In this document: piece by piece, positions 1,268 through 58,912 of the stretch | Layout of the letters: each line of letters opens with the position of its first letter | Numbering within the stretch: the first letter of the stretch is position 1 | Source of the DNA: Eledone cirrhosa | Taxonomy: Eukaryota | Assembly: GCA_964016885.1 (NCBI GenBank) | Contig: OZ024745.1 | Location: 101,246,001-101,310,000 of the forward strand | Reading direction: 5' to 3' | Length of the DNA: 64,000 nt | Notes under the pieces: generated by a model | What the model saw: only the letters and a program-made list of their open reading frames with translations | Told to the model about the DNA's origin: nothing | Databases searched by the model: none | Position numbers and translations under genes: made by a program

Positions 1268-1270
<3 letters not shown>

Positions 1271-1790
1271 GATTGGTGCTCTGAAATAGCGATGTATACA
1301 TGAATGTATACATAATATATTTGGCAATACACCGTATGTTTAATTAAAAACATTTTGAAGACCTTACGTTATCATTTTAAAGTAGTGATTATGTCACTTC
1401 TTTTCGGCGAAAGAAGACAGAGAAGCTAACAGTCAGTTCCATGCTGTTTGGCAATCATCAGAGCTACGTATATTGCCAAATATATTACGCATACATTCAT
1501 GTATACATCGCTATTTCAGAGCACCATCCTCATATTTAATTTTTGCTGGACCAGCAATCGGTCTGTATAATCAGATCCAGATTATTACTGGAATTCTATA
1601 AGAATCCAGCTTCTATAATTTTCGCCGGAAGAGGGCAGTACGTAGCTCTGATGATTGCCAGACAGCATGAAACAGACTGTTAATTTCTCTATCTTCTTTC
1701 GCCGAAAAGAAGTAAGTGACATAGTCACTACTTTAAAACGATAGCGCAAGGTCTTCAAAATGTTTTTAATTAAACATACGGTATATTGCC

Positions 1791-1791
<1 letters not shown>
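1268..1791. mobile_element. Non-coding HHR-bearing element (~315-nt monomer family) with inverted duplication, in (TA)n
   Basis: 1268-1470 is the reverse complement of parts of 1469-1791. The + copy begins and ends with TATTGCCA (1471 and 1784; period 313). Homologous to 10110-10380 and 21721-22330. Confidence 0.8.
1644..1686 (+). ncRNA. Type I hammerhead motif, degenerate copy (inverted partial copy at ~1424-1466)
   Basis: AGCT-CTGATGA-TTGC CAGACA GCAT-GAAA-CAG A CTG-TT. Same family as the intact copy at 22125. Confidence 0.6.
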
Positions 1792-1836
<45 letters not shown>

Positions 1837-2918: not shown

Positions 2919-3876
2919 ATACTTTGGGAGGGTCATGTTGCCAATAAGAAACATACGCAGCACCAGTAGCTTTCACTTCAATTTATTATAATAAATTTAT
3001 AAATTTCCTGTAGGTTTGTTGGTTCCACAACCAGATGATTGTTTATATATTGTCAAAGTTCGTTCGTCACACATTCTGTGAGGGAGGTCTTGGGGGGGGG
3101 GGGGGGGGGTATATGTTGCTAATGGGTGTTTTTGTGGAGGTGTCTGGTCTTTCTGCTATCTTGATGTTGAGTTTGTGTTTATCTGGGGCCCTTCTGGGTT
3201 TGTGGGCTGGTTCACCTCTGGGGGTTGTGTCAATGAGCATTGCACTCTGGTGTCTATTGCTGTCGTTTCTCATCACCCGTACCAGATTCGCAATCAGTGT
3301 GTTGATTTTGGTGTGGTCCGAGGCGGCTGGGTTTCGGTGGATCAGATATTTGGAAGTCGTGGGTTTGGCATAATGGGAATGAAGGATTTGTTTTTTTTGT
3401 TAAATCACAGAGGCAGTGAACATAAATGAGCTCCAACCAAAATTGAGTGGAAGGCGTGGGTGGAGCAGCAACGTCGCAGCTTGCGGTTGAGGACAGGATG
3501 AAAACACACACGCACATAGAACAAACAACCAACCAGTAACATAAGCACACAACACACACACAAAAACAAGATGGCGTAGGACAGAACAAAGGAGAAGCAC
3601 AAAAACAAAGAAAAGAATCCCCAGTCACTGAAGAGGTCACAGAATGTGTGACGAAAGAACTTTGACAATATATAAACAATCATCTGGTTGTGGAACCAAC
3701 CAACCAACCGGAAATTTATAAATTCCTAAATTTATAAATTTATTATAATAAATTGAAGTGAAAGCATCTGGTGCGTGTGTTTCTTATTGGCAACATGACT
3801 CTCCCAAAGTATAACAATATCGGTTTCAACACCCGTTTTCAGATAAAGAATCTTGCTAAACAAATTCAGAAACGAA

Positions 3877-3907: not shown

Positions 3908-4011
3908 TCAATGAAAAAAGAGTTAGTTGATTTGTAATCAACTGATTCTTATATATAACAGATGCCAAGCACTCAACGGTATATATTTATCCGGAGTATT
4001 ATTATAGTAAT

Positions 4012-4194
4012 AATTGTTTCTACTTTTGGCACAAGGCGTAACAATTTATCCAGTGTATTACTGGTACTTTATTTTATCGACCCCATAAGGATGAAAGGCA
4101 AAGTTAACCTCGGCGGGATTTGAACTCAGAATAGCAAGGGCCATAACTCTATGCGTCAAAGCATGGCGTCCTACCCTCTACCGATACTGCCAAT
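4012..4194 (-). mobile_element. tRNA-derived SINE with Nin/Deu-like central domain (most abundant SINE here)
   Basis: Reverse strand GAGTTCAAATCCCGCCGAGGTTAACTTTGCCTTTCATCCTTATGGGGTCGATAAAATAAAGTACCAG. Other copies at ~630-720(+), 12621-12749(-), 19345-19550(-), 19676-19792(+), 28325-28442(-), 29362-29540(-), 48395-48575(+), 51357-51490(+), 55015-55428(-, two), 62300-62520(+). Confidence 0.85.
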
Positions 4195-7046: not shown

Positions 7047-8435
7047 ACATATCCAATTCGACATCAATAATTACTACTCCTCCATCATTTTACCACTTCT
7101 CCTTAGAGCTATCAATTTCGCTAAAACACTCACAGTGGTTAAGGATTTCGAAGTTGATGTCATCCTCAATGCCCGTAAGTCGGTGATTAATTTCGACGAC
7201 TCTATTTGGATTAAAAAACCTATCGTACCCCATTCGACGGGAGTATGGGCGCCAGCGATTCTGCGGAGGTTACTGATCTTATCGGCCTTTTCTTTCTTTT
7301 CTCTATCAAGGAAGAATTCCCCAATGTGGGCGGTGGTTTGTACCGTGATGATGGTCTTTTGTCCATGACAAAGTGCGGCCCACGTGCTTGCGACAGGTTC
7401 AGAAAAGAACTCACAGCCTTCTTTAAAGTCTTCAACCTCTCCATACAGGTTGATGCCAACCTCTCGGTCGTTAATTACCTCGACGTTACTCACAATTTGT
7501 CGAATGGCTTGCACTACCCGTATAGAAAGCCGAATGATACGCTTAATTACATAAGTAAGCATTCTAACCATCCTGTCAGCATAACCAAGAACCTGGTAAG
7601 AAACGTTTCTTTGAGGCTTTCCCGTCTATCTACTAACGAGAATATTTTCAACGACCATTCCACATATTACAATGAAGCTCTTGCTTGGAGTGAATTTGTC
7701 GATAAGGTATCATATACAGAGTACGAGAATAGACCTATGAAAAATAGATCCCGACGCATTATATGGTATAACCCACCATATAATATGGATGTGGCCACAC
7801 CATTAGCGATGATCTTTCTCTCCCTTGTTATGAAGCATTTTCTCCCTACACATAAACATAGTCACATTTTTAATAGAAATACTATTAAAATTTCTTACTC
7901 TACGACTCCTAACCTTGCACATAACATCACAGCTTCAAATTTAGCTAAACTACCTAGCCGTAGGAACACGTGCAACCCTGTAGTTAGTACTAACTGTAAT
8001 TGTAAGAATTGGGTTGACTGCTCCCTATCCGGGAAATGCCTCTCTAGTAACATTGTCTACAAATGTAAGGTTGAAATACCCACGTCCCGTAGGACCTACA
8101 TAGGGTTAACCGCCAATAGATTCAAGCAGCGTCTTTACATGCATACCCATTCTTTTCGTAACCCTTCAAGAAGGAATATGACGTCACTTTCAGCTTATAT
8201 CTGGAGTCTACAAGACAACCACACCCAATATAAGTTACACTGGGAGATCCTAGCTAGGGCTAGATCGTATAACGCAAATAAAAGACCATGTGACCTCTGT
8301 GCCGCTGGAGCCCTGGAAATACTCTACGCCAAAGACCACATCTTAAACAAAAAATCTGAGGCAATTACGGCTTGTAAACATAAATTGCACAAAACATTCC
8401 TGTATTACATCCCCACATTATACCCTAACGGATAG
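7047..8435 (+). pseudogene. Naiad-clade Penelope-like retroelement ORF (5'-truncated, one frameshift): RT + Zn linker + GIY-YIG
   Basis: [12 protein letters not shown] (RT motif A), GLYRDDGL, YRKPN..SNHP thumb, WYNPPY, CNCKNWVDCSLSGKC, IVYKC...TYIGLT...FKQRLYMH, CDLC. Confidence 0.92.
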
Positions 8436-10109: not shown

Positions 10110-10380
10110 AAAATTAGAATTGGCGCTCTGATATAAGCTATATATATATATATGAATGTATATATAATGTATTTTACAATACACTGTATGCTTAATTAAA
10201 AGCATTTCGAAGACCTTATGCTATTTTTTTAGAGTAGTGACAGTCTCACTTACTTTAAATTTTCAGCAAACAGGGGTGAGACTGTCACTACTCTAAATAA
10301 ATAGCATAAGGTCTTCGAAATGCTTTTAATTAAGCATACAGTGTATTGCAAAATACTATATATATACATTCATATATATA
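10110..10380. mobile_element. Fold-back copy of the ~315-nt family (HHR portion absent)
   Basis: 10150-10249 and 10275-10378 are inverted repeats homologous to 1290-1400 and 21721-21820. Confidence 0.75.
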
Positions 10381-10500
10381 AGAAGAAGTGCTATTTAATT
10401 TATTGGAAGTCCGACAAATATAAATGTTTATAACTGATTTAGAGCACTCAACACATTATTGGAGTAAATATGCGGAAACTATATTTATAAAACCATATTT

Positions 10501-10563
10501 ATTTTATTATATATATTTCAAGGGCAACCAAGACAACATTGGTACGCTTTCATCAGATAAAAT
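10501..10563 (-). ncRNA. Type I hammerhead ribozyme
   Basis: Minus: ATTTTAT-CTGATGA-AAGCGTACCAA...TTGGTTGCCCTT-GAAA-TATATA-TA-ATAAAAT. Confidence 0.8.
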
Positions 10564-10564
10564 A

Positions 10565-11185
10565 CAAAGCACTAGACAAATGTTTTCCTAAAGCCCACAG
10601 ATACCACTCAATCTTTAACAGACATACTATAAAAATATCTTACTCTACTACTATGAACATAGCACAGAATATAAATAGAATCAATAATAGAAATTTAAAC
10701 CATAACCAAAATAGCAGTAATATCTCTAGCAATATCTAACATAATAGTACCGTTCTGAATAACAACAACTCCGCAAAATGTTACTGTAGAATTAAATTAA
10801 ACTGTCCTTTACAAAATAAGTGTTTAGATAAGGACAAACCAGTGACAATATATTTAACTATGTCGGTGCAACTTCTACGGAATTTAAAAGTCGCTGGAAT
10901 AATCACGAATGCTCTTTCCAAAAATTTGATAAAAAATCTTCAACTTCTCTTTCAAACCTGATATGGAACTTAAAATGCAAGAATATGGACTATTCTTTAA
11001 TCTGGGAAATAGTTTCGAAAGCACCCGCATACCGAAACACAGCTTTATCTAGATTTTGCAAATTGTGTGTAAAGGAAATTTTTTTCATACTTAAACGTAA
11101 GAACTCTATTAATATAAGGACGAATTTATTTAGTTCTTGTAGACATCGCCTGAATTCAACATTTATAACTATATATAAATTATAA
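10565..11185 (+). pseudogene. Naiad PLE 3' fragment (linker + GIY-YIG), disrupted
   Basis: KALDKCFPKAHRYHSIFNRHTIKISYST, CYCRIKLNCPLQNKC, YVGATSTEFKSRWNNH, WEIVSKA...FCKLC. Confidence 0.88.
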
Positions 11186-11590: not shown

Positions 11591-12094
11591 ACACATACAC
11601 ACACACACGCACACACCCACACACCCACATATATATATATATATCACTTAAGAAACGGAGAACCAGTGATGCGACGAATTCAAATTTATTAGACATATTA
11701 CAATCGTTTCTCTGGCGACCGGCTCGAAGCACAATCGATGCAATGATCAAACCTGACTCTGAAATCGCAAGATCCCCAGATACGTCTTGATTCTTCGAAG
11801 CAGAGTTTCCACTATATATATATATGCAGATTAGGCTAATCAGCCGATGAATACAAGAGTTCTTGTATGAGGCAGAAAAGGAGAGACACAATTTTGACGA
11901 AGGGCAATAACTCCGAAAGAATTGTTGATTCTTTCTCTCTGCTATCGCTAGAACAAAATGACGGTAGTCGTATAAAAGACATATCCCTCTGAGGTTGTTT
12001 GCTTGCAAATGAATCGAATATTATTATTATTTGCTACAATACTCACGAATGCATATATATATAAATATATATATATATGTGTGTGTGTGTATGC

Positions 12095-12553
12095 GTGAAA
12101 TCCTTGGTACAGTTAGCTATATTTGAAAAAAAAGGAAAAGAATGACTTCACTTGTAGTTCTAAACAATTTGATAATATGATTTTATAATATGATTTTACA
12201 ATTCAGTTTTGAAGATCTAGTAAGTTCTTTGTTAACTTCGGTGGGAAGATTTTTAAAGCTTCGTGGTTAACTTTCCTGGACAACTTTCTCGCATTCGTCG
12301 GTGCCGATTGTCAAACTGTCAAAATGATCTCAGTTGGACAATCGCCACCGACGAATGCGAGAAAGTTCTCCAGGAAAGTTAACCAGGAATCTTTAAAAAT
12401 CTTCCCAGCGAAGTTAAAAAATAGCTTACTAGATCTACAAAACGAAATTGTAAAATCATAATATTATAGAATTAAATCAAATTGTTTAGAACTACAAGTG
12501 AAGTCATTCTTTTTCTTCTTTTCAAATATAGCTAACTGTACCAAGGATTTCAC
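12095..12553. mobile_element. Fold-back element with ~220-bp arms (family also at 25135-25402 + 27310-27362)
   Basis: 12095-12317 is the reverse complement of 12334-12553. Sits in (TG)/(CA) repeats. Confidence 0.75.
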
Positions 12554-12767
12554 CCACACACACATGTGATGGGGTAACTCTGCAAATCTTTCCACCAAAC
12601 GACGGCCGGTTTGGCCAATAATTGTTTCTACTTTAGGCACAAGGCCAGCAATTACCCAGTGCATTACTGGTACTTTATTTTATCGACCCCATAAGGATGA
12701 AAGCAAAGTAAACCTCGGCGGGATTTGAACTCAGACCGTAAAGGGACGTTTGACCAATAATGACGGC

Positions 12768-15003: not shown

Positions 15004-15004
15004 A

Positions 15005-16128
15005 ATACACTCAATTTAAACTCTGGTTTGATTAAACCGTTTCATAAATTGAATGAAAATCTCAAATACGTAAATGTTGGGTCTAACCACCCCATCTCTA
15101 TAATTAAATCTATCCCTAAAAATATTTCCCTTAGAATCTCGGGTCTATCTTCTAACATACAAGTATTTAAGGAACACGCCGAGTACTACGATAACGCCCT
15201 TAGTGAAGCAGGCTACCTCAACAAAATAGAGTACATAGATGGGAACAATCAAAACACCCAAAATAAATCCCACATAGGTAGATATAATAACACAACACCA
15301 AACCACACTTACTACCATAGTATGCACACCAGTAAACCAACAAACAAAACTAATAGAAAGCGATGCAAAGAGTACTTATGGTATAACCCCGAATACAATA
15401 GTTCCATTAGTACAAATTTACCAGTACTCTTCTTTAAAATAATTAAAAGACATTTTCCTACATCACACAAATACCACAAAATCCTAAACCCTACCACTAT
15501 AAGACTGTCATACTCTACAGCGTTAAACCTTGAACAACACATAAAAAAGATCAATACTAGAAGGTTAAACGAAAACACTAAAAACTTAAGTACAAAGAAC
15601 ACAAAAAAAACAGTAGACAATACACTACAGAACATAAATAAACCACACCTAAGTTCGTCCGCAATACTACTCCAGAGAAAACCCAACGTACACAACTGTA
15701 ACTGCACCTATCCTGACAACTGCCCCCTCGGCAATAACTGCCTGGAAAAAAATATTATTTATAAGTGTACCGTTAAATCCGGAGGCAACGAGTGGTATTA
15801 CGTGGGATCAACGGCAACATCGTTTAAATCTCGATTGTATAGGCATTCTTACTCAATAAAACACCAGAGCCAAAGAAATGTAACAACTTTAGCAGAAAAA
15901 GCTTGGACGCTCAGGGATAGCGATCAAAAGTTTACCCTAAAATGGGAGAAATTAGCTAAAACCCAAAGCTTTTCCAGGAGCCAAAATTTCTGCAAATTGT
16001 GTAATCTTGAGATTTATTACATAATCACACACAAGAAGAAACTGCTGAATAACAGAATTGAACGAACATTATTCTGCCGTCACAGAACTAAAACCCTTTT
16101 TTCCCACTACAAGCCGAATATTACATAA
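15005..16128 (+). CDS. Naiad PLE ORF, 5'-truncated but uninterrupted (RT thumb, Zn linker, GIY-YIG)
   Basis: KPFHKLNENLKYVNVGSNHP, WYNPEY, CNCTYPDNCPLGNNCL, IIYKC...YYVGST...FKSRLYRH, FCKLC. The N-terminus of the ORF call is microsatellite read-through. Confidence 0.9.
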
Positions 16129-17167: not shown

Positions 17168-17967
17168 ATTCCTTTCAACTAAACTGTATCCATTCAAATC
17201 TTTCTATATATAAATATATATATATATATATATTATATCTATTTTGGGAAACATATAAAGTAGGCTTTCAGCGCAGTATATGACAGAAACGTAAATACAC
17301 TCTGTGAAGTTTAATTACTGAACTAAAAATATAAAATATAGATTAAATATAAAAAATTTTTTTAAATTAAATTTGATCATTGGCACTGAATTCCATCTTA
17401 GAAATTTATACTGAATCGACACCTTATTCATTGTCATGTTCCATTCACATAAATCATACTTAGACATGTATCAGATTCTATTGCATCTAATGTTCTGTAA
17501 TATTATGATGGTAATTTGGAAAGATTAAAACAAAATTTTTAAAAGATAAGAGCAAACACAAACGCCATGTACATTTTATTATAAATAATTTTAGCTGAGA
17601 TTGCTTATGTTGTAAAGCAATTAATGGTTTAATATGTTCAATCATTAGAAGAAAAAGCATTTTATTACATGCGTTACATACACATTATTTCCTTGGTTTC
17701 AAATTAGGAACATTGGAAGCAATAAAATCTGATACAGCTTAGTATGATTTATGTGAATGTAACATTGGAATGAATACAGTTGAATTTAAGTCGATTTTAT
17801 CGAACCCCAGCACTTATCACCCTATTTCTGTCAAACCACTAACCTATGGGACATAAACGAACATGTTTGTGTGTGTGTATGTCCATGTCTGTACTTACGT
17901 AAATGTTTGTTTACGTCCAGTTATATATATATATATATTGTTTACGTCCAGTTATATATATATATAT

Positions 17968-18708
<741 letters not shown>

Positions 18709-19072: not shown

Positions 19073-19814
19073 ATGGATGGATCCGTAACTCCTTTTGGAG
19101 TTTAAGGGCACCGTATTGATCTGGCGTTTCTTGACCATTTTAGACCTGGCTGAGCCCATTTTCTCCCCATGTCTGAACACAGAGCGAGTGAAATAACTTG
19201 CGTTTATCACTTAGATGGCTGAAAGTTTGACTGAGGAACGTAGAGATACAGGGTACAGAAACAGATGCACAAAGCAGCAATTCTTTACTTCACAGAATTT
19301 GCATATATGATATTGTCAAGTAGAACAGTAGCATATAGAAATATATTGGTTTCTTATTTAGGTACAAGGCTAACACTTTTGGGGGGAAATTGATTAAATC
19401 GACCTCAGTACTTTATTTTATCGATCCCGTAAGGTTGAAAGGTAAAGCTAACCTCGGCATGATTTAAACTCAGATCGTAAAGGGACGTAGCCTTATGCCA
19501 TAAAGAAAGTTGTCCGATTCTCTACCGATACTGTCAATTTATCATCCTTTAGAAATATATTAAATTAAACACACGTTTTTATTGTCCATTAATATATCTT
19601 TATATTAATATATCTTTATATCTTTATATATCTTTATATATCTTTATATATTAATATATCTTTATATATTTATGATCTGAGTTCAAATCCCGCCAAGGTT
19701 AACTTTGCCTTTCATCCTTACGGGGTCGATAAAATAAAGTACCAGTAATGTACTGGGTAATTGCTGGCCTTGTACCAAAAGTAGAAACAATTATTATATT
19801 ATTCAATTCTGAAT

Positions 19815-21596: not shown

Positions 21597-21652
21597 ACTG
21601 CCTGATGAGGTCATAGCCATTCAATGGCTATCATCGAAATATATATAGCAGT
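21597..21652 (+). ncRNA. Type I hammerhead ribozyme
   Basis: ACTGC-CTGATGA-GGTCATAGCCATTCAATGGCTATCATC-GAAA-TATATA-TA-GCAGT. Stem II covaries with 24941 and 59055. Confidence 0.85.
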
Positions 21653-21693: not shown

Positions 21694-21724
<31 letters not shown>

Positions 21725-21846
21725 GAATGTATATATAGTATATTTGGCAATATACTGTACGCTTAATTAAAAACATGTTGAAGACCTTACGCTATTGTTT
21801 TAAAGTAATGACTATGTCACTTCTTTTTTCAACAAACAAAGGGAGA

Positions 21847-21894
21847 TAAGCTGACAGATCTCTGTTTCATACTGTTGGTATTCATCAGAGCTTA
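21847..21894 (-). ncRNA. Type I hammerhead ribozyme
   Basis: Minus: TAAGCT-CTGATGA-ATAC CAACA GTAT-GAAA-CAG AGAT CTG-TC-AGCTTA. Confidence 0.9.
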
Positions 21895-22124
21895 GCACTC
21901 GCCTTTGTCTGTTGAAAATTATAAATGTTGGATTCTTATAGAATTCCAGTAATAATCAGGAACTGATTATACAGAGCGGTTGCCAGTCCAGCAAAAATTC
22001 AATATTAGAATTGGTGCTCTGAAATAGCGATGTATATATGAATGTATATATAGTGTATTTGGCAATATACTGGAATTCTATAAGAATCCAACATTTATAA
22101 TTTTCAACAGACAAAGGCGAGTGC

Positions 22125-22172
22125 TAAGCTCTGATGAATACCAACAGTATGAAACAGAGAGCTGTCAGCTTA
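22125..22172 (+). ncRNA. Type I hammerhead ribozyme (canonical, GUC site at 22164-22166)
   Basis: TAAGCT-CTGATGA-ATAC CAACA GTAT-GAAA-CAG AGAG CTG-TC-AGCTTA. Stem I extends past an internal loop: TTTTCAACAGACAAAGG / CCTTTGTTTGTTGAAAA. Confidence 0.92.
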
Positions 22173-22339
22173 TCTCCCTTTGTTTGTTGAAAAAAGAAGT
22201 GACATAGTCACTACTTTAAAACAATAGCGTAAGGTCTTCAAAATGTTTTTAATTAAGCGTACAGTATATTGCCAAATATACTATATATACATTCATATAT
22301 ACATCGCTATCTCAGAGCACCAATTCTTATATATATATA

Positions 22340-23610
22340 TAAGGCCCATGGCCAAACTATATCTTACAACCCGAGGCGCCATGATAGAGATAGACCATCG
22401 GACCCCCCGACCCACGGTATCCGGGAGGGGGGAACCCTAACAGTGCAGGTAGAGTGGAAGCCACTAAACCCCATGAACCCGGCACCACCACATTAGAGAA
22501 AAGGACGCGTACGCCTAGTCATGGGAGGAAATCCAGTACGCGAGGTGGTCTCAGGAGTGATAATAACCACCCCGGGCCCGACGCCCCCAACCGCAAGACA
22601 CGAAGCGGGACTGACGGAGGATCATCCAATTGTAGAACTCTCATCATGGGCACACACACCACCCAACAGGTACGGGCCGAGAAGCTAGCAAAACACATAG
22701 CGCTCAAAGGGGAAACAACAATACGGGAACTAGTAGCAACCCAACAACTCCCCAACAGCCTACAGCACGCTCAACCCATCCACATAGGAATAGACTAAGA
22801 AAAATTACGTGGTGCAACCCACCCTACTAAGGAACCTAAAGACCAGCATGGCCCGGTCATTCTTTAGAGCACTAGATAAATGCTTCCCGGGGGACCACAG
22901 ATTCCACAAGATCTTCAACAGACACACTGTGAAGCTCTCGTATTCTACCACGCGCAACGTAGCCCAGCACATAGCTAGCAATAGGGGTAGACTTAAAAAC
23001 TACACACAACCAGCAGCTGGCAATATAAGCACCCAGCAGAGCCATGTAGGGGGAAGGAATGGTGGACCCGGTACCCACCCTGGGAACCCAAACAGACCCA
23101 GGGACCCCCCACCGGGCCCAGGGGCAGACCCCCCTATACTACGCAAAGGGAACCCCACAATAGGCACTCAGGGGTCGACCACCTCCTGCAACTGCAGAAC
23201 CCTTACATTATGTCCCCTTAGTAATGAATGCCTCATGAAGAACCTAGTATACGGATGTAGAGTAAAAAACCCCAACTCTGAGCACATTTACATAGGAGCC
23301 ACATCAACGAGCTTCAAAGACAGATGGTATAACCATCGCCATTCCTTTAATAGGGAGGGCAAAAGGAAAAGTACGGCTCTCCGAACTGATCTGGAAGCTC
23401 AAGCTGGACAGGACCCCGTACTCTCTGGCCTGGTCCCAAATCAGGAAAGTGCCACCTGATAGAGGGGGATCTGGATCTGCAACCTATGTCTCAGTGAGAC
23501 CCTCGAGATACTCAATGGTGGGAGCAGCCTAATCAAACTTAGGACCGACTTCTTTGGTACATGTAGTCACCTCAGGGCCGGAACCTTCCTCAAACTATAT
23601 GGATAACAAC
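22340..23610 (+). pseudogene. GC-rich Naiad PLE 3' ORF fragment with expanded linker, frameshifted
   Basis: FFRALDKCFPGDHRFHKIFNRHTVKLSYSTT, CNCRTLTLCPLSNECL, LVYGC...IYIGAT...FKDRWYNH, ICNLCLSE. Confidence 0.88.
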
Positions 23611-28245: not shown

Positions 28246-29763
28246 CTAGAAAAAGGAAAGAAATATAAAATGAAAGAGAAAGTATAATTGATCTCAGAAC
28301 ACAACTGGGACTTTATTGATTCTGAAATGCCGAAAGGCAAAGGTAGCCTCGGTTGTATTTGAAATCAAAGCACAGACAACCGGAACAAATGTCGCAAGGC
28401 ACTCTATCCGACGCGCTAATGAGTTTGCCAATTCACCACCTTACCTGAGTGCATACATCTGATTAAAATGACAGCTTCCATGTTCTTAAGCAACTGTGAC
28501 TTCGTCGTTTATTGAGCATGCGTGTATAATATTTGCGTGTGTGCATTTGTAAAGCATATCTGAAGTATCTGTTACAAGGTTACGTTTTCTTAGTACAAGT
28601 GATAAATATAGTTTATTTTTCTTGCAGCAATCCTCTTTCTTATTCATAAGCAACGTAAAACTATTTATTACCATTCTATTGTAAGGTTTCAAAATGTTAA
28701 GTAGCAAGCATTGCACTTCGTAACTTATCCCATCTTATGTTTCTTTTACAATGCACAAATACATATATACATATACATATATAGACACGCGCGCACATAT
28801 GTGATATAAACACACACAGTAGATAACTGTGATGAGATTGTTGACTATTTCGATTGCCGGTAGTATGCACTCTTTGGTATTTAAACAGATTTTTTTTTAA
28901 ATCGAGGAATGGGTTAAGGGTGACCTGGTATTAATGCATGAAGCATACATATCTGTTTTGAAGCTAAACATTCTTCAAGAGCACATTGAAACCATAAAAA
29001 AATCTTTGAACAAATAAACATATAAATAAAAGGATGCTATTCAGCGTTTTGTTGAATGCTAACACACACGGTGGCAAATATTTGTTATCGACGCAGTTAT
29101 AGCTATTACGATAAACCCGGATGTTACCATCCTCTGAACCTCTCACATCTAACGAGGAGTGGAATAAAGACAATAAGTGCAAATATATTCAGAGGCTGGT
29201 CTTTAAAAAAGACATGTTATGAAGTATGCTGCATTTGAAGTTCTAACTTAACTGGAAAAGATTTTTAAAAAAACGTAGATTTTGGAAGACAATAAAGAAG
29301 GTAGAAATGTAGAAATGAATAAGACTTAATTCAATATCAGTAATATTTACTGGATAAAATAAGTTGTTTCTACTTTTGGCACAAGACCAGCAATTACCCA
29401 GTGCATTACTGGTACATTATTTTATCAATCCTGTAAGGATGAAAGGCAAAGTTAACCTCGGCGGGATTTGAACTCACACTGTAAATGGACGTAACCATGC
29501 TGGAAAGTATGGTGTCCGACCCTCTACCGATACTGCCATTGTTGGAAGATAATAGTTACTACTACTACTTTCATGAGCAAAAGAGAACGTCAAGGAGATT
29601 TTAAATTGATATTTCTTGGAGTGAACTGATATATTTAGAATTCTCAGACTCAACAAGTAGGCCATTGAAACCAACGAGAGATCGATTATATCATTGCATG
29701 GCTTTCTAGAAATACTTGCCGATGTCCTAAAATTAAAAGGATATATTAGATAATATAATCCTG

Positions 29764-30240
29764 GGCATACGTCAAAACGGCCGGTCTCAAAAGTGAAACT
29801 AATTTTTGACAGTTACGTACACGTTATAAGAGTTATTTAAATTTTTATATATAAAATAAAGGAGCAAATAAGAGCATGATATGAAGTCAGTCATGTGTGT
29901 GTGTATATATGTGTGTGTGTGTGTAAACAAATGTAAAAGAATATATGTAGGGCATAGATAAGGTTTCCTAGAATTTTACACACACACACACACATATATA
30001 CACACACACGTGTATATATTATAGTGTGTATGTTTGCATATATAAGTGTATATGTGTGTGTACTTTTACATTCGTTTACACACACACACATATATATACA
30101 CACACACATGACTGACTTCATATCATGCTCTTATTTGCTCCTTTATTTTATATATATATAAATTTAAATAACTCTTATAACGTGTACGTAACTGTCAAAA
30201 ATTAGTTTCACTTTTGAGACCGGCCGTTTTGACGTATGCC
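29764..30240. mobile_element. MITE with ~177-bp TIRs and 9-bp TSD (Mutator-like)
   Basis: GGCATACGTCAAAACGGCCGG... / ...CCGGCCGTTTTGACGTATGCC. ATAATCCTG duplicated at 29755-29763 and 30241-30249. Confidence 0.88.
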
Positions 30241-30984: not shown

Positions 30985-31175
30985 ATCCTGGGCTCAATCG
31001 TGGGTGACTTCATTAAGTAAGTTAATCAATACAAAGCAGAGTATAAATATTTAATATAGAAAGGCTTCTACAAGACTAGAACTGTTTCATTCGGGTGAAA
31101 TCATCAGGAACCCCTGATGATTTCACCCGAATGAAACAGCTCTAGTCCTGTAGAAGCCTTTCTATATTAAATATA
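30985..31175. mobile_element. pLTR fold-back with HHR cores on both arms
   Basis: ...TTTCATTCGGGTGAAATCATCAGG aacc CCTGATGATTTCACCCGAATGAAAC...; ~60-bp arms, in (TA)n. Confidence 0.7.
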
Positions 31176-31387
31176 TATATATATATATTGTTTTCCCTTT
31201 TCATTTTCGTTTTTTTTTTGTGTGTCTTTACTGGACATTCTTTCTGCTTTCTCCATTGTAATTCTGTTTCTATTTGTACTCCTGAAGAAGGGCTAAAACC
31301 CGACACGTCGAACTTTCTTTCCTATTTCCAATATAAAGCGTGAAACTAATAAGACCTTTTGTACCTCTGTTTGTTGTCTCCTCGAAC

Positions 31388-32725: not shown

Positions 32726-33107
32726 GAAATTAAGGTTGAAACAGATGTTACATAATCGTATTTATTGGATAAAACGTATATCAGTGACACCAGCGTGAAG
32801 CTGTTTATGCGATCGTTACAACAGCAACCGGCACTGGTGTGGCATCATCAGATGCTAACATAGTTATGTGAGGTGTTAGTATGTTACTTCCATATTTGCG
32901 AAAGTCCAGTGGACTGGAATCTTGCAAATATGGAAACGTTTGCTTGCGGCATATCAACTCCTTTACATAATTGTGTTAATATCTGATGGCATCACATCGA
33001 TGCCTGTTACTGTTGTAATGATCGCATAACAGCTCCACATCGGTGTTACTGAGATACGTATTACCCAATAAATACGATTATGTAATATTTGTTTCAACAT
33101 TAATTTC
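32726..33107. repeat. Old imperfect palindrome / MITE-like element
   Basis: GAAATTAAGGTTGAAACAGATGTTACATAATCGTATTTATTGG pairs with CCAATAAATACGATTATGTAATATTTGTTTCAACATTAATTTC. Centre near 32910. Confidence 0.75.
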
Positions 33108-38820: not shown

Positions 38821-40876
38821 GAAAAAGTTGTTAAAAGAATGAGATGGAAAGCTTTGATTTTCGATGGGCACTTTATCACGGACTCTACAGAATACTTTGA
38901 TATCAAGTCTCATAAATACCCATAAAGAGTAAAAGATATGACCGCTTTTGAACTAGACTTAGTTAATTTAATCAACCAAATCAAATTCCGTAAGTACTCT
39001 AACTCTTTTTAATCTAAACTCTCTAACGATATTTCAAAATTCAAATCCTCTAAAAACATGTTCATTTTCTCTGATAAAACTAAAAACTTATACGAAGTTA
39101 ATAATGACTTACATAACCAACTCTTAACAGATAGTATCACCTCCAAATACCAAATAGCTAATATAAACACCTAAGGAAGCCAAAGAATTAGCTAGTTTTT
39201 TTTTAATAGACAATAGAACAGAAAAATTGCTAAACGTAATGCCTATATCACCCTCAAAGATCACAAATCTGATTTTAATAATCGTCCCAGTTGTAGATTA
39301 ATCAACCCTGCTAAGACTGAAATCGGCCTTGCTAGCAAAAAAATATTAAATAATATAAACAAACATATTAGAAGTAAGTCTGAATTACTCCAATGGATAA
39401 ATAGCTCTTCTGTAGTACATTGGTTTAAAAATATTAAAGATAAAAATAGTTCTAGATTCACCCAATTTGACATTGTAGACTTCTACCCGTCTATTACTCA
39501 CCCTCTTTTAAGGAAAGCATTAAATTTCGCTAAAAAGTTTATCAATATTTCTGATATTGAAGAGAATGTCATTTTGCATGCTAGAACCACTTTACTGTTT
39601 ACTAATAATGACACTTGGGTAAAAAAATCTAACCCAGAGAACCTATTCGATGTCTCAATGGGTTCTTTTGACAGTGCTGACGTGTGTGATTTAGTCGGCC
39701 TATTCCTCCTACACACACTTAAAGAGAAATTCTCTAACCATTCCTTTGGGCTTTATCGTGACGATGGTCTAATACTTTCCCATACCACTATAGGCCATAA
39801 CTTAGACAGATTCAGGAAAGACTTAATAAAATCCTTCGCTAGTTTTAATCTTAAAATTACCATTGACACTAACCTTTCTAATGTTAATTTTCTAGATATA
39901 AACCTAGATCTGCCTACTGCTTCTTATAAACCGTACCATAAACCAAATGAAAATTTAAAATATATAAATAAAGGCTCTTGCCATCCTCCTATAGTTTAAA
40001 AAAATCTTATCCCTAATATTAGCCGTAGGATCTCCACCCTCTCTTCCTCAGAAGCTATTTTCAATAAGGCATCCCCTACTATAATAAAGCCCTTCAAAAT
40101 AGCGTATTTAGTGAACCGATTAACTACATACCCAACAATACTAACTCCTTTAAACATAATAATAGGAAAAGAAAAATAATCTGGTTCACCCCACCCCTAC
40201 TCTTTAGCAGTTAAAACTAATGTAGGCAAAAAACTCCTAGAGCTCTTGGATAAACATTTCCCTAGAACACATAGATACTATAATATCTTCAATAGAAACT
40301 ATGTCAAAATCAGCTACTGCTGCGGTCCTTCTATTAAATCTTATATCCTCAATAAGAAAATACCCAGAGAACATCAAAATTGCTCCTGTAGAGTCAAAAG
40401 CGAATGCCCATTACAAGGTGAATGGCCATTACAAAAGTGAATGCCCATTACACCAAAGCCATTGTATATGAGGCTAAAGTGACAACCACCAGCAACAACC
40501 TACCAGCCACCAGCGAACGATATGTGGGTATGACACAAGACAAATTCAAAACGCGTTATTACTCACATGTCGCATCTTTCCGATATTCTGAAAAAAGATT
40601 TACAACAGCTCTGGTTAGCAGAATATGGGATTTGAAAACCAAGGTATCCAATATAAATTAGATTGGTCAATTTTGAACAAATCTAAAGAATATGCAAGCG
40701 GAACAAGATGCGCACTCTGCATAAGTGAAAAATATTGGATTTTACAGAACCTTAAATCACCAAAAACCTGCCTAAATGCAAAAACAGAAATTTTCACCAG
40801 TTGCCTACACATGAAATCACACTTGCTTTCCAGCTCATATAAACTTAACTCACTTTCAGACATGTATCCTCCATAA
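38821..40876 (+). pseudogene. Naiad ORF (RT + GIY-YIG) with several stops and frameshifts
   Basis: KRMRWKA N-terminal motif, SDKTKNLY, YITLKDHK...CRLINP, FTQFDIVDFYPSI, MGSFDSADVCDLVG, GLYRDDGL, CSCRVKSECPLQGE, IVYEA...YVGMT...FKTRYYSH, CALC. Confidence 0.93.
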
Positions 40877-42714: not shown

Positions 42715-43460
42715 ATATTGTAATACTTGGGGAGGGTCATATTTGTGTAATAATATTGCCACCATTAATAACAGAACACACTCACTGTTTGGTTGGTTTT
42801 CACTTCTGTGTCTTTTATATCGGTTAATTTAATTTATTCGGTCCTCAATGTTACCATTGACAAAAATACAGATACAATATAGACACAAACACTTATATAT
42901 AGTCTAACAAAGTTCTTTCGTTGCACATCTGCAACATCGTCAGTGGTGCTATTATGTTTCCTCCTGTTGTATTGTATGTCTACGCCATCTTTATTTATTC
43001 TGTTTATTTATTTATTTTTTTGTCTTCTCTGCGCATGCGTTTGCGTGTGTGTATAGTGTTTTATGTGTGTTCGTGTTTGGGTGACTGTGTATTGGTTATT
43101 GTATTCTATCTTAGTTTACTAGTGTGTGTTTATATGTGTTTGATGTTATTGTGCTTGTGTATGTATTTATTTATTTATTTATACTTCTCTTAGGTCAGTA
43201 TTGTTTGTTTGGGTGTTGTTGTTATTCCATTCTTTTTTTCTGTTTAACCTTGGCTTTCTAAGTTCTATTTCGCTGGCCTCTCTGATTTTCCTATCTGCTG
43301 GGTCATTTCTATGTTTAGATATTATTCTAATTTCTATGTTGTCTATGTTACCGCCGTGTTGTTGTCTGGCATGTTCCTATAGTACCCAAACAAACAATAC
43401 TGACCTAAGAGAAGTATAAACAAATAAATAAATACACAAGCACAATAACAACAAACACAT
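42715..43460 (-). mobile_element. 3' end of the non-Naiad PLE family (GIY-YIG C-terminus at 43245-43385, HHR at 42906-42947, short inverted 5' segment)
   Basis: 43250-43385 is near-identical to 17975-18105. Minus HHR: ACCA-CTGACGA-(T)GTTGCA GATG TGCAAC-GAAA-GAAC-TT-TGTT. 43386-43460 inverts ~43135-43212. Confidence 0.8.
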
Positions 43461-45504: not shown

Positions 45505-45717
45505 CTGAAGACAGCATATATGTGTGAAGGTATGTATATTCCCTCTGATAGTTTGTATAAATATTGTACATAGATCTATAGAATATGCATACCAATTCTA
45601 ACACATATATATCCTAGAAACGATCGTAAAATAATGAATTTTTTTGGTTTAATATAAGAAACTGTTTCTTTGTTTATTCATTATTTTTTTAATAATTTAT
45701 ATATATATATATATATA

Positions 45718-45919
45718 TAGGAAAATGTTTGACCCCGAGAGCAGAGCTCAAGCTGTCTCGACGGCTATTTCTGGACTATTTGAGTCCAGAAATAGCCGTC
45801 GAAACGGCTTGAGCTCTTCAGTCGGGGTCAAACATTTTCCTATTACCCACTCTACTACCCTAAGTATTGAGTACTCTGGTGCGTTATGGTCCATCTGGTT
45901 CCTTACCACACCTCCTACG

Positions 45920-47941: not shown

Positions 47942-48900
47942 ACATACACACACACACATACACACACACACATACACACACACACACAACCACACACAGA
48001 CACACACACACACACACACGCACATACACACACACACACATACAAACACACACACAGACACACACACACACATACATACACACACACACATACACACACA
48101 CACATGTACATACACACACACACAAGTTCTATTTCATGAAAATTTCAATAAGTAAATCTCATAAATATCCAGATTACATGGAGGAAAGATAGCTACATAA
48201 TCGATCTTTCTAGACATGTCGATTAAAGAAATTGATTATAATAATCATTACTAAAGGGTAAAAATGATACATTAGTCTAACACGTCGTTTTCATCATTTT
48301 TATCTTTCTCTCCTCTGTTTATCTGGCTTATCCTTTTTACTTTCCTCCTGTTATTTGTACTTATTTAGTAACTATTCGTCTGTTTTCATCTCTTATTGGC
48401 AGTATCGGTAGAGGGTCGGACGTCATGCTTTGAACCATAGAGTTACGGCCCTTTCCATTCTGAGTTCAAATCTCGCCGAGGTCAACTTTGCCTTTCATCC
48501 TTACGAGGTCGATAAAATAAAGTACCAGTAATGTACTGGGTTATTGCTGGTCTTGTGCCAAAAGTAGAAACAATTATGATTTCTATGGATCATACAGAAA
48601 AAAACTTGCAACCAATGGCGTCCAATGGCGTCTGTCAAAATGTTTTCGCTGTACGCCTGAATAAAGCATCTTTGTCTCCTTCAGAAAGAGACGACCTTAC
48701 TGGAGTGAAATCCATGAACCAAATCAATGGATGTTTTCAGTGGAAAGCCGGTTACATGGAAGAGAAGAACATTACACACTTAACGTATTCATATCGGTTT
48801 TATTTGTAAAAAGCAACATTAATTGATGAATAAATGAATATAACAAACAAATATATAAATATATATATATATATATACATACATATATATATATATATAT

Positions 48901-52192: not shown

Positions 52193-52875
52193 TATAATTA
52201 TAGTAATTACAGGCAAGTGGGGAAAACTTGACCATACCTTAGTTATTTATACTCAGCTTGATAATATCTCTGTTAACATTCTGGGCTAGTATTCCAAGAA
52301 TTCCTATGACCAAAGATATTCCAGTTGTGTCTAATCCATATGCTATTATATCAGGGATTTCGCTATTCGATGAATTTATTTTCTTCATTTAAGTGGCTAT
52401 TTGAAGGTGTTTTAGTTGTTATTTCTAGCTATTTCATTGACTGCGTGGAAGCTGTCACGGAATGCTGCTGCTGATTAATGATGATGGTGGTGGGGATGTT
52501 CTTGTTGTTTAGTCGAAGGTTAACCCTTCTCCAACAAACTTATGGTCAAAGGTATTTCAGCTGTGCCTTTGTAAATAAGGTCTTCTTTATTCAATGTATT
52601 CTTTTTTCTTTTTTTTTTTAAAGACAGTATGGTGTGATTTGAGGGAATTTGGCTGCTATTTCTAGTAAATTGAGCAACCTTTAAGGGCTCTTTTATTGCC
52701 TCGTAGTGATGTTAGTGGTGGGGGTAATGGATTTAATGGCTCCGCAATTTGTGATTGAATAGTCAATAAATATCTTGTTTAACACCTGTCTTCATTAAAA
52801 CTTTAGGCGCTTGAAAGGGTTACAAAACATTTTTTATAAAATGATTCCTCTTAAGAAATATCGATTTGGCGTGAA

Positions 52876-53231
52876 TTTAGTGTTTCGAGTGTTAGCAACA
52901 TTTAAACATTACGAATATGAAATATAAATTTAGATAATTTTAAAAGCCATACAATGCATTAGAAAATTAAAGGTGCCAAGATAATGATAGAATTTTACCT
53001 TAGCAAATTTAATTATCCCAAATATTTTCGGGTTTAAAATCCCATGGATACTCCCTTGATAATGGAATGTTAAACCCGAAAATATTTGGGATAATTAAAT
53101 ATGCTAAGGTAAAATTCTATCATTATCTTGGCACCTTTAATTTTCAAATGCATTGTATGGCTTTTAAAATTATCTAAATTTATATTTCATATTCGTAATG
53201 TTTAAATGTTGCTAACACTCGAAACACTAAA
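52876..53231. repeat. Near-perfect long inverted repeat (~165-bp arms, short spacer)
   Basis: 52876-53044 is the reverse complement of ~53062-53231, with few mismatches. Confidence 0.9.
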
Positions 53232-53352
53232 CCTTTACAATTCGATATTTAATCTCACCATGAAGAATTTTCATTACATGTGCGATAATATAATTTTATG
53301 AGAACCATACCCCAAGTTACTATCTGTTTATACTGTTGAGAGGGAGAGGGGG

Positions 53353-54800: not shown

Positions 54801-55721
54801 GATAAACACCAATATTTATTTATGTTATGTTCTTCTGCGAGGCGGGCTGCGATGCCGGGATTTGTGGCCGAAGCGACTAAATTGGAGGCGGAGAACGTGT
54901 CGCAGCTGAATAGAAGTAATGGTGATAGAGTCTATTTGCTTCTTTTTCTTTTTAGTACGTTTGAAATCCCATTAGAAAAAAAAAATCTATTGTTGAACAG
55001 TAGTATATAATAATTGTTTTTAGTTTTGGCCAAGGCCAGCAAATACCCAGTGCATTACTGGTACTTTATTTTATCGACCCCGTAAGGATGAAAGGCAAAG
55101 TTAACCTCGGCGGGATTTGAACTCAGAATGGCAAGGACCGTAACTCTATGCGTCAAAGCATGGCGTCCGACCCTCTACCAACACTGCCAATCCACCTACA
55201 GTAGTATATAATAATGGTTTCTTATATAGGCACAAGGCCAGTAATTTGGGGGGAGGGGAAAGTCGATTAAATCGACCCTAGTGCGTGACTGGTATTTTAT
55301 TTTATCGACCCCATACGGATGAAAGGCAAAGTTAACCTCGGCGGGATTTGAGCTCAGATCATAAAGAGCCGTAACTCTATGCTGCAAAGCATGGCGTCCG
55401 ACCCTCTACTGATACTGCCAATCCACCTACAGTAGTATATAATAATGAAAGTATTAAAATGAGATTAAAATAATATGTTATACATGAGAGACCGCTGGTC
55501 TTCTCAAAAAAAATCATGCCCAGGCTTGTGCCTCGGAGTGGACATTTCTAGGCACAAAACCTTGGTTATTCATGACCGAACACGGACTACGATGATGTAT
55601 ATATATGTGTGTGTGTGTGTGTGCGTGTGTGTGTGTGTGTGTGCTTGTGTGTTGTGTGTGTGTATATATTTATATACATATATGTCTGTATATATATGTG
55701 TGTGTGTATATATATATACAT

Positions 55722-56159: not shown

Positions 56160-56520
56160 TACAAACGAAAGACACAGAACTCCAGGGTCACCGGCCGTTG
56201 AAGTGGACTTTGGCAGTTTCGACCTTTCACCGTATTTTTGACTAAAGGAATTTTAGCCTGATAATGGGGTTTAGAACCCTCAGATAAATGGAAAAAGATG
56301 GGTATTGACGTACATGGGAGTCGAACCCACATCTTTGGTTATCGCGACCATTACACCAACACCACATGATGTGTTGGTGTAATGGTAGCACAGTGGTCGC
56401 GATAACCAAAGATGTGGGTTAGGCTCCCATGTACGTCAATACTCATCTTTTTCCATTTATCTGAGGGTTCTAAACCCCATTATCAGGCTAAAATTCCTTT
56501 AGTCAAAAATACGGTGAAAG
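56160..56520. mobile_element. tRNA-headed element as a fold-back (arms 56224-56361 and 56372-56520)
   Basis: 56368-56438 folds as a cloverleaf: acceptor GATGTGT/GTACGTC, A box TGGTGTAATGG, T arm GTGGG-TTCGACT-CCCAT (intact in the left arm). Not a canonical tRNA gene. Confidence 0.75.
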
Positions 56521-57451: not shown

Positions 57452-57731
57452 TTTAGGTTTGTTGGTTCACCACTGGATAGAATTGGTCATTCCGTATGGA
57501 ATGATCATAGTATAATAAACCTTTCAAGGTTTTACACCAGTCCAGCCTCCTCTTATTTTATATATATATATATATACAATGATATCACATAAATGGAAAC
57601 CATATTAATAAAACCATATTTACTCTATTATATATATATACTTCGAGGGTACCAAAATATACCTTAACGGTTCAAGTTTTCCTTGGATAGTCCTTGAATA
57701 GTTATATCAAAATTTATGAAACACACTACGT

Positions 57732-57790
57732 ATTTTGTCTGATGATAGCGTACCAAAATTTTGGTACCCTTGAAATATATATAATAGAAT
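57732..57790 (+). ncRNA. Type I hammerhead ribozyme
   Basis: ATTTTGT-CTGATGA-TAGCGTACCAA AATT TTGGTACCCTT-GAAA-TATATA-TA-ATAGAAT. Confidence 0.72.
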
Positions 57791-58018
57791 GAATATGGTT
57801 TTATAAATATAGTTTCCATTTATGTAATATGATTGAATATTATACTCCAGAAACTGTCGAGTGCTCTGAAGCATTTATAAACATTTATATTTGTTGAATT
57901 ACCAACAAATTGAATATCCCTTCTGCTTATATATATATATTCTACGGTTCTTATATATTTGATATATATTTTCCTTATCGAGCCCTCTTTGGATTTTAGT
58001 CTTCAATTTTATTATTAT

Positions 58019-58519: not shown

Positions 58520-58912
58520 ATAAGCCTAGCGAAAACCTTAGATGCATACACAAGAACTCCTGCCCTCTCCTATAGTTTTCAAAAATTCACTTAAGAATAT
58601 TAACAAGAAGATGTACAACCTTTCCTCAAACCAAGCTATTTTTTCATAGAACAGCCCCCTACTATAATACAGCCTTACGCAATATCGGATTCTCTGAGAA
58701 TATATCCTACTCTCCAGCAAAAATGTTTTAAAAACCCTAGAAATAGAGAGAAAGTCTGGTTCTCCCCTCCTTTTTCATTAAGTACCAAATCAAATGTTGA
58801 AAAGAAGTTTTTAGCTCTCATAGATACACACGTCGAACCAGGACACAAATACTGCCAGATCTTAGATCGCCATTCGATCAAAATTGTACACTCCTGTGCC
58901 GGGAACATGTAG
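58520..58912 (+). pseudogene. Naiad PLE thumb/linker remnant
   Basis: IVFKN...NLSSNQAIF...YYNTALRNIGFSENISY...RNREKVWFSPPFS...SIKIVHSCAGNM (frameshifted). Confidence 0.8.

What the first reader, a model, noticed from the sequence alone, without database searches (positions are those of the whole stretch)
21721..22330. ~315-nt circularly permuted monomer family with a textbook hammerhead
Seen: the unit repeats with period 315 at 21721/22036 and 313 at 1471/1784, but the two insertions start and stop at different points of the same cyclic sequence. Both have an inverted partial copy fused on (TACTG microhomology at ~22068). The HHR at 22125-22172 is canonical, with a 17-bp distal stem I beyond an internal loop. 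Inference: these are reverse transcripts of a ~315-nt circular RNA.
Basis: partly seen in the sequence, partly recalled or inferred. Interest (0 to 1): 0.82.

Follow-up and report, generated by a model that had tools for sequence, protein, structure and literature searches.

The report
Penelope-pasted hammerhead retrozyme, fixed ends
This is one copy of an abundant 315-base, protein-free animal repeat that carries a predicted self-cutting RNA and lands as two back-to-back arms ending at two fixed points, the known footprint of Penelope-type jumping genes, so it is likely an ordinary member of a known kind (a retrozyme), and whether its RNA is a circle remains untested.

Summary
The 315-nt unit, the inverted arm, the TACTG overlap and the type I hammerhead are real. 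A versus B shows 6 of 31 pairs changed on both sides, and contigs show a U3-A8 core variant. Read in RNA sense, all 3 window loci are two head-to-head arms in AT-rich tracts, mostly (TA)n. One arm always ends at one fixed point (T2). The other ends about 30 nt earlier (T1; 2 of 3). Only 5' ends vary. Reads of three DNA libraries and contigs show the same two ends. Partial tandem, inverted truncated copy and one-sided 30-nt tail are the published Penelope-like-element signature. The unit closes on itself without an ORF, and that junction occurs in other copies. Best reading: a non-autonomous, Penelope-mobilised hammerhead element (animal non-LTR retrozyme type), probably driven by Hydra-clade elements whose remnants fill the window. 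A circular template is about even odds against an uncleaved tandem transcript. No two-ribozyme copy, RNA, cleavage or autonomous partner was shown. The scan noted this two-armed pattern before, in other families of this genome. New member of a known kind.

The parts
21698..21721 (.). (TA)n tract at the left end of locus A (target; boundary with the element ambiguous by a few bases)
21722..22072 (-). Locus A long arm, 351 nt = 1.11 units; 5' end at +96, 3' end at T1 (+131), no tail at its 3' end
21826..21918 (-). Extended type I hammerhead of the long arm (core C3 at 21888, predicted cleavage after 21853)
21924..22001 (-). Segment 3' of T2 with predicted hairpins in A and B; closes the unit back onto the hammerhead with no ORF
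   Evidence: contigs bridging it
22006..22072 (-). Upstream partial copy (pseudo-LTR-like overhang) containing T1, the tail and T2
   Evidence: (I2, D1)
22068..22072 (.). TACTG, 5-nt microhomology shared by the 5' ends of both arms (head-to-head joint)
22068..22326 (+). Locus A short arm, 259 nt; 5' end at -98, 3' end at T2 (+160)
22101..22193 (+). Extended type I hammerhead: 17-bp distal stem, internal loop, stems I-III (22125-22172), predicted cleavage after C22166
22223..22310 (+). Most conserved domain among A, B and C, predicted to be closed by a long-range helix around T1; candidate recognition element
   Evidence: (invariant columns); role inferred
22298..22326 (+). [quoted passage not shown]
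   Evidence: loose ends
22328..22341 (.). (TA)n tract at the right end of locus A
1268..1798 (.). Locus B: short arm 1470-1268 (minus, ends at T2) and long arm 1468-1798 (plus, 331 nt, ends 16-23 nt before T1); about 81-83% identical to A; GUU triplet; both hammerheads carry damaging changes
10110..10380 (.). Locus C: two short head-to-head arms, left ending at T2, right at T1; truncated before the hammerhead

Best explanation
This is a 315-nt non-coding repeat with a type I hammerhead fold, inserted as two head-to-head arms with two fixed 3' ends about 30 nt apart, and it is likely a non-autonomous passenger (animal non-LTR retrozyme type) pasted in by the reverse transcriptase and endonuclease of a Penelope-like element. 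Shown by sequence or reads: the unit, the hammerhead fold with compensatory changes, the two fixed ends (T1, T2), variable 5' ends, AT-rich or (TA)n flanks, both arms of a locus coming from one template lineage, and closure of the unit without an ORF. Inferred: a Penelope protein, probably of the (TA)n-targeting Hydra clade, binds the conserved structure that spans T1 and T2 and cuts both strands of a (TA)n tract. One DNA end primes copying inside the RNA at T1 and the other at T2. Both cDNAs run through the uncut ribozyme site, stop at variable points, and are joined 3' end to 3' end by a short microhomology (TACTG in A). The template must carry sequence on both sides of T1 and T2 and be longer than one unit when read. 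My single most likely template is a monomer circle made by hammerhead cleavage and ligation of a tandem source locus elsewhere, at about even odds with an uncleaved tandem transcript. Locus A has one ribozyme per arm, so it would be a dead-end product and not the source.
For: Fixed ends: T2 in 3 of 3 loci and T1 in 2 of 3. Loose ends running into (TA)n-like letters at 22002 (334, 411, 368 reads; 63 contigs) and 22033 (382, 377, 442 reads; 29 contigs) in X12, X13, X14 and X1; these are 2 of the 6 rows shown per run, and 735 weaker rows were not shown. One contig each in X4 (22002) and X6 (22033). Variable 5' ends and inversion joints: 21807/21881 in all three read sets; 21795/22047, 21988/22039 and 21999/22060 in X1; an X6 contig with a tail-only inverted arm at 21954 and an X5 inversion at 21999. 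One template per locus: over 81 shared columns, 12 letters are shared only by the two arms of one locus (A 1, B 3, C 8), against 2 adjacent columns shared across loci. A's private letter at 21760 is absent from 381 of 394 X12 reads. The short arm carries a tail that the long arm's 3' end lacks in 3 of 3 loci, which a simple fold-back copy cannot supply. Ribozyme under selection: 6 of 31 pairs changed on both sides between A and B with the core invariant; G10.1 and C11.1 common in reads (203 of 483 and 404 of 697 in X12, unphased); a U3-A8 double change read from loose-end consensus lines of 15 X1 contigs, 1 X4 contig and 1 X6 contig. Literature: partial tandem, inverted truncated copy and one-sided 30-40 bp tail (PMC8557442; PMC3846280); two internal RT start sites define the tail, both strands are cut and extended, and sequence 3' of the start is required (PMC11167929). 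Hydra-clade marks in window remnants: CxCX5C at 5 places, RWK and DKT at 38842 and 39070.
Against: No RNA, circle or cleavage was observed. No copy with two ribozymes in the same orientation was seen: 0 of 6 window arms reach two units, and laid contig pieces are too short to show one. No autonomous partner was found: the unit matches no Penelope remnant in the window, and six unit motifs gave only 3 hits in the Craig et al. supplement, all in what looks like coding sequence, judged by eye. The covariation count rests on two independent lineages, the structure was drawn from A, and one of the six pairs depends on gap placement. ViennaRNA prefers an inactive pairing of the core with stem III by 3.6 kcal/mol (right arm) and 1.1 (left arm). 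Rfam's hammerhead models do not hit. B's long arm ends 16-23 nt before T1, and locus C shows no clear microhomology. Read counts come from restriction-digested libraries and are biased by AATT sites in the unit. In the only in vitro Penelope system, uncleaved linear RNA was the main template. In the Li et al. preprint 8 of 9 predicted retrozyme dimers did not cleave.
Confidence: 0.75

Rival explanations
1. Same Penelope machinery and same two start sites, but the template is a linear, uncleaved read-through transcript of a tandem (two or more unit) locus, or a cleaved monomer with a template jump; no circle is needed. This is the alternative inside the best explanation; the confidence is for a linear template.
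For: Uncleaved RNA was the dominant template for Poseidon_Ac in vitro and ribozyme mutants inserted normally. The long arms of A and B start within 2 nt of each other (+96, +98), and two X7 inversion joints fall at 22069-22070, as a defined 5' end or stop could give. An inactive alternative fold is predicted to be favoured. None of the 6 window arms exceeds 1.11 units.
Against: Other copies run past that point (X1 record 8, 22070 to 21763; X5 record 9, on to 21802), so it is not a hard end. The X7 joints lie at the edge of the reference and in a near-palindrome. Selection on the ribozyme core and stems implies that cleavage or ligation matters. Comparable elements of mussel, coral and axolotl accumulate mostly or half as circles (PMC7229834).
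Confidence: 0.4
2. The inverted arm arises by self-priming or fold-back copying (on an antisense RNA or on the new cDNA), not by priming from the second DNA end.
For: Self-priming was proposed for head-to-head Penelope structures (PMC3846280). Arms of a locus are near-identical (A: 3 differences in 230 nt). A's long arm ends in a small hairpin, and TACTG can anneal at 21947-21951.
Against: The short arm continues into the tail to T2, which the long arm's 3' end does not contain, in 3 of 3 loci; this needs a second switch or later loss each time. Poseidon_Ac extends both cut strands in vitro.
Confidence: 0.1
3. The copies are truncated terminal repeats (pLTRs) of an autonomous Penelope-like element rather than a self-contained non-autonomous unit.
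For: A 5'-truncated Penelope ORF fragment starts right after locus A (about 22342-23600) and remnants are frequent. In organism D (X7) only 21931-22072 matches inside contigs up to 1253 nt long.
Against: Beyond T2 the sequence returns to the hammerhead in about 90 nt with no ORF in A and B and in bridging contigs (record 6). There is no similarity to the ends of the window's ORF remnants, and B and C have no such ORF inside them.
Confidence: 0.07
4. One reading: reverse transcripts entered at random points of a circular RNA, hence circularly permuted copies.
For: The junction is present in several copies, and arms exceed one unit. The circular fold is more stable than shuffles (z -4.8 for A, -2.7 for B), but so is the antisense strand (-3.7, -3.5).
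Against: 3' ends are fixed at two sites. The apparent permutation came from comparing opposite strands.
Confidence: 0.03

Closest known systems
Animal non-LTR retrozymes (Cervera and de la Pena 2020, PMC7229834: passages and sections 13, 14, 17 read; Li, Clavereau and Pollet 2026, bioRxiv 10.64898/2026.07.22.740005: parts 1-3 of 5 read, supplements not seen)
   Same: Non-coding unit of 150-450 nt, GC 33-36%, one canonical type I hammerhead per unit with a 4-bp helix III and tetraloop, no LTR, PBS or PPT seen, coexistence with Penelope-like elements that carry minimal hammerheads.
   Different: Seen here only as 0.3-1.1-unit arms in inverted pairs, not as head-to-tail dimers or arrays; no circle shown; in the parts I read neither paper describes inverted arms, tails or fixed ends.
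Penelope-like element insertions: Hydra clade and general structure (Craig et al. 2021, PMC8557442: passages, section 11, supplement searched with 6 motifs; Arkhipova et al. 2013, PMC3846280: passages)
   Same: Partial tandem, inverted 5'-truncated copy joined head to head with a short overlap, one-sided tail of about 30 nt, (TA)n target, hammerhead in the repeat.
   Different: No RT or GIY-YIG ORF in the unit; the hammerhead is canonical with a long distal stem rather than the minimal form seen beside it in the window; no sequence link to a named family was found.
Poseidon_Ac internal initiation (Frangieh et al. 2024, PMC11167929: parts 1-2 of 4 read)
   Same: Two start sites define an optional tail; AT-rich target; start sites lie downstream of the hammerhead cut; sequence 3' of the start sites appears to matter.
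   Different: Autonomous, other clade, minimal protein-assisted ribozyme; there the template in vitro was uncleaved and linear.
U3-A8 hammerheads of Schistosoma Cercyon elements (Cervera and de la Pena 2014, PMC4209133: passages)
   Same: The same double change in the catalytic core occurs in a subfamily of this element.
   Different: There in minimal ribozymes of autonomous elements; here in relatives of a canonical ribozyme, read from partial contigs only.
Non-autonomous Chlamys elements (MRC1, Chlamys-N4; PMC8557442 and PMC9977147: passages)
   Same: Non-coding Penelope passengers with pLTRs, head-to-tail copies, 5' truncation and microsatellite targets.
   Different: Green algae, (C)n or (CA)n targets, most Chlamys lack a canonical hammerhead.

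Membership tests
Type I hammerhead ribozyme | Core CUGANGA, GAAA and NUH joined by three helices, helix I open | tested here: met
   compensatory changes
Type I hammerhead ribozyme | Match to an Rfam hammerhead model | tested here: not met
   No hit; the models cover only part of known variants (own knowledge)
Type I hammerhead ribozyme | Self-cleavage after the NUH triplet | not testable with these tools
   Only folding energies: active fold 1.1-3.6 kcal/mol above the minimum, without tertiary contacts
Animal non-LTR retrozyme | Non-coding unit of 150-450 nt, GC below 50%, one type I hammerhead per unit | tested here: met
   315 and 313 nt, GC 0.33 and 0.36; no ORF of 150 aa or more in the unit
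Animal non-LTR retrozyme | Head-to-tail tandem with at least two complete hammerheads | tested here: inconclusive
   Not at these 3 loci (0 of 6 arms); head-to-tail junction present in other copies, but contigs are too short and no genome is held
Animal non-LTR retrozyme | Expressed as a unit-length circular RNA | not testable with these tools
   No RNA holder listed, which is no evidence either way
Penelope-mediated insertion | Partial tandem plus inverted 5'-truncated copy, head to head | tested here: met
   Inverted pair in 3 of 3 loci, partial tandem in 2 of 3; further inversion joints
Penelope-mediated insertion | Optional 30-40 nt tail at one end (two fixed 3' ends) | tested here: met
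   T1 +131 to +135, T2 +160 to +166; B's tail-less end is 16-23 nt short of T1
Penelope-mediated insertion | AT-rich or (TA)n target, no poly(A) end | tested here: met
   Pure (TA)n at all 4 ends of A and B, shorter AT-rich tracts at the 2 ends of C; loose-end letters
Autonomous Penelope-like element (Hydra clade) | ORF with RT and C-terminal GIY-YIG, CxCX5C linker, RWK and DKT motifs | tested here: not met
   The unit has no ORF; the motifs occur only in separate remnants
Non-autonomous partner of a specific Penelope family | Sequence shared with the terminal repeat of an autonomous family | tested here: inconclusive
   No match in the window or to 6 motifs in one supplement; whole genome not held

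The most novel reading that the evidence does not exclude
One small RNA circle is copied from both ends of a double-strand cut by a Hydra-clade Penelope protein that starts at two sites 30 nt apart inside a conserved structure. The ribozyme is held under selection down to a C3-G8 to U3-A8 swap, and a competing core-stem III pairing keeps the monomer circle from cutting itself. The family would then be a natural record that joins the retrozyme circle model to the Penelope tail mechanism, and a 315-nt minimal substrate for testing both.
Probability: 0.3. Interest if true: 0.6.

Novelty: new member of a known kind. Interest (0 to 1): 0.3.

Why it matters
How Penelope-like elements make partial tandems, inverted copies and tails, and whether they mobilise animal retrozymes from circular RNA, are open questions; the link is proposed in print from co-occurrence and sequence kinship (PMC7229834, bioRxiv 2026.07.22.740005). 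This family shows the Penelope footprint on a protein-free hammerhead unit and gives a short substrate with mapped start sites. It does not itself settle the circle question. By the scan's unchecked earlier notes, other families of this genome have multi-unit arms and would be better material.

Tried and rejected
Whole-genome copy census: no genome is held, so end positions come from 3 window loci, reads and short contigs. Pattern scans: 0 matches in metagenome and viral contigs for a 26-nt pattern and 0 in genome contigs for a 22-nt pattern. A 19-nt pattern gave 10 metagenome loci, all rejected because similarity to the unit stopped at 21-24 nt. Expression: no RNA holder listed; X6 is of unknown kind and its contigs include (TA)n flanks, so I drew nothing on circles from it. 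Molecule ends at 21765/21768, 21942/21945 and 21999 in X12-X14 coincide with AATT sites and were rejected as library digestion, not element ends (my inference). The read loose ends behind 21999 were rejected for the same reason, and in X1 their consensus resembles a diverged continuation into the tail. The large loose-end class before 22015 is a variant that is frequent in these reads but rare in X1 contigs at several linked places, and was set aside. The near-equal T1 and T2 read counts were not used as a ratio because of that bias. Low depth over the hammerhead, and no cover there in X7, were not used as evidence. Rfam hits to microRNA and snoRNA models are far below gathering scores. Model R1 found only the four known hammerhead copies, two of their antisense strands and an unrelated palindrome at 31062-31159. 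Pfam found only weak GIY-YIG and RT hits in 2 of 6 ORFs; the Penelope diagnosis rests on motifs. Sequence look-ups in earlier findings gave nothing. Paper searches for octopus + hammerhead + Penelope (5 papers hold the terms, 4 listed) and cephalopod + retrozyme (2 hold, 1 listed) showed no description of this family by title; the library lacks most subscription papers, and the supplements of the Li et al. preprint were not seen.

Full report
Setting. The window is AT-rich animal-type DNA full of (TA)n tracts (123 rows), with several broken Penelope-like ORFs. No whole genome is held. I recall one frequent repeat of the window as an octopus element, and earlier AI notes call the genome a cephalopod; neither comes from a test of mine.

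Observation. Self-comparison finds the family at three loci: A (21722-22326), B (1268-1798) and C (about 10110-10380). The periods 315 and 313 are real but rest on overlaps of 43 and 18 nt, so the long arms are 1.11 and 1.06 units. Each locus is two arms joined at their 5' ends, with both 3' ends facing out into (TA)n (A, B) or shorter AT-rich tracts (C). A's joint has the 5-nt overlap TACTG, B's has 3 nt, and C's has no clear overlap.

The ribozyme. A type I hammerhead lies at 22125-22172 and again on the minus strand at core 21888. My descriptor found 8 motifs in the window and none in 30 Markov simulations, but missed B's two copies. The 17-bp distal stem is present. Between A and B the core is invariant and 6 of 31 pairs change on both sides: 4 in the distal stem, 1 in stem II, and 1 in stem I that depends on the alignment. 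These are two lineages only. In X12 reads the usual G10.1 and C11.1 are common (203 of 483 and 404 of 697, unphased). Loose-end consensus lines of 15 X1 contigs, 1 X4 contig and 1 X6 contig read, in RNA sense, as a core with C3 changed to U and G8 to A. This double change keeps the 3-8 pair and is reported for Schistosoma Penelope ribozymes (PMC4209133, passages). Against: Rfam's models do not hit, and ViennaRNA prefers an inactive pairing of the core with stem III by 3.6 and 1.1 kcal/mol in the two A copies. Cleavage is untested.

The ends are fixed. With the cleavage site as 0, A's short arm runs from -98 to +160 and its long arm from +96, one round earlier, to +131. B's and C's left arms end at the same point as A's short arm (T2). 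C's right arm ends at the same point as A's long arm (T1). B's long arm starts at +98 and ends 16-23 nt before T1. I laid three raw DNA libraries and one contig set of the species label that holds the stretch best on A's long arm at 80% likeness: 7927 of 12,467,656, 6585 of 12,785,554 and 5765 of 12,647,150 reads, and 5035 of 16,285,364 contigs. Of the six best loose-end rows per run, two run into (TA)n-like letters: 22002 (334, 411, 368 reads; 63 contigs) and 22033 (382, 377, 442 reads; 29 contigs). These are T2 and T1; 735 weaker rows were not shown. Inversion joints fall at many places. The libraries are restriction-digested: molecule ends at 21765/21768, 21942/21945 and 21999 match AATT sites, so depths and ratios are not used.

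The junction is shared. Three X1 contigs, 13-17% different from A, bridge the T2 junction, and one continues past A's 5' end (records 6-8). Contigs of X4, X5, X6 and X7 bridge it too, and X5 record 9 goes back 315 and runs on to 21802. The sequence beyond T2 returns to the hammerhead within about 90 nt with no ORF. In X7 (organism D) the listed pieces match within 21931-22072, on both sides of T1 and T2, which fits a recognition element that spans the start sites.

One template per insertion. Over 81 columns shared by all six arms, 12 letters are private to the two arms of one locus and 2 adjacent columns are shared across loci. A's arms differ at 3 of 230 positions and share a letter that 381 of 394 X12 reads lack. 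Yet the short arm carries a tail that the long arm's 3' end does not, in 3 of 3 loci, which argues against simple fold-back copying.

Mechanism. Partial tandem, inverted 5'-truncated copy and a one-sided 30-40 bp tail are the published Penelope structure (PMC8557442; PMC3846280). Purified Poseidon_Ac protein cuts and extends both strands of AT-rich DNA, starts inside the RNA at two sites that bound the tail, and needs sequence 3' of them (PMC11167929). I infer that a Penelope protein does the same here, one DNA end priming at T1 and the other at T2, with the cDNAs joined by microhomology. Window remnants carry the Hydra-clade marks CxCX5C (5 places), RWK and DKT, and that clade targets (TA)n. 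This makes Hydra the likely driver, but no sequence link was found. The template must be read for more than one unit and across the uncut ribozyme site. A ligated monomer circle does this and is documented for comparable coral, mussel and axolotl elements (PMC7229834). An uncleaved tandem transcript does it too, and was the main template in vitro. I put these at about even odds. Either route needs a source locus of two or more units, which I did not see; no RNA holder was listed.

Comparison and verdict. It works like an animal non-LTR retrozyme mobilised by a Penelope-like element, the relation argued by Li et al. 2026. Formal membership is incomplete: tandem ribozymes are inconclusive, and circles and cleavage are untestable here. 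Two paper searches showed no description of this family. Earlier notes of this scan describe the same two-armed, two-ended pattern in other families of this genome. I reached my reading before seeing them, and they are not independent support. New member of a known kind; interest 0.3.

Noticed in passing
runs X1 (place 21906), X4 and X6 (places 21906 and 21873): A subfamily whose core reads U3-A8 with G10.1, a compensatory double change in the catalytic core, in two organism codes.
   Followed up: partly
window 7054-8435, 10521-11167, 15004-16128, 22342-23600, 38842-40810, 58522-58909: Broken Penelope-like ORFs related to each other; five carry a CxCX5C linker and one has RWK and DKT, marks of the Hydra clade.
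   Followed up: partly
window 21597-21652 (+), 26040 (+), 57739 (+), 59062 (+), 51041 (-), 10556 (-): Minimal Penelope-type hammerheads with a long stem II and a palindromic TATATATA-like stem III; the one at 21602 ends an older element directly left of locus A, so insertions are nested in one (TA)n tract.
   Followed up: partly
window 12084-12564, 29764-30240, 31042-31179, 32726-33107, 45717-45843, 52856-53250, 56224-56520, 57567-57844: Further long palindromes of unrelated sequence, probably two-armed insertions of other families.
   Followed up: no
window 57861-57871 (-) and about 10441-10447 (+): A short GAGCAC-containing motif like the one in this family's tail occurs in a different minimal-hammerhead family; possible shared start signal.
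   Followed up: partly
run X7, contigs of 321-1253 nt matching only within 21931-22072: In organism D the region on both sides of T1 and T2 sits in longer contigs that are otherwise unlike the unit; these could be a diverged relative or the autonomous partner.
   Followed up: no
runs X12-X14, loose ends before 22015: A variant with a different tail and many linked differences at 22038-22063, frequent in the digested libraries.
   Followed up: no
window 4000-4194, 12617-12749, 19676-19799, 29354-29538, 48395-48580, 55001-55191: A dispersed repeat of about 190 nt in many copies; I recall it as an octopus SINE-like element, from memory only.
   Followed up: no
window 17942-18547 (-), 43132-43385, 3109-3264: A different GIY-YIG-like C-terminal ORF fragment ending at (TA)n, in three copies.
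   Followed up: no
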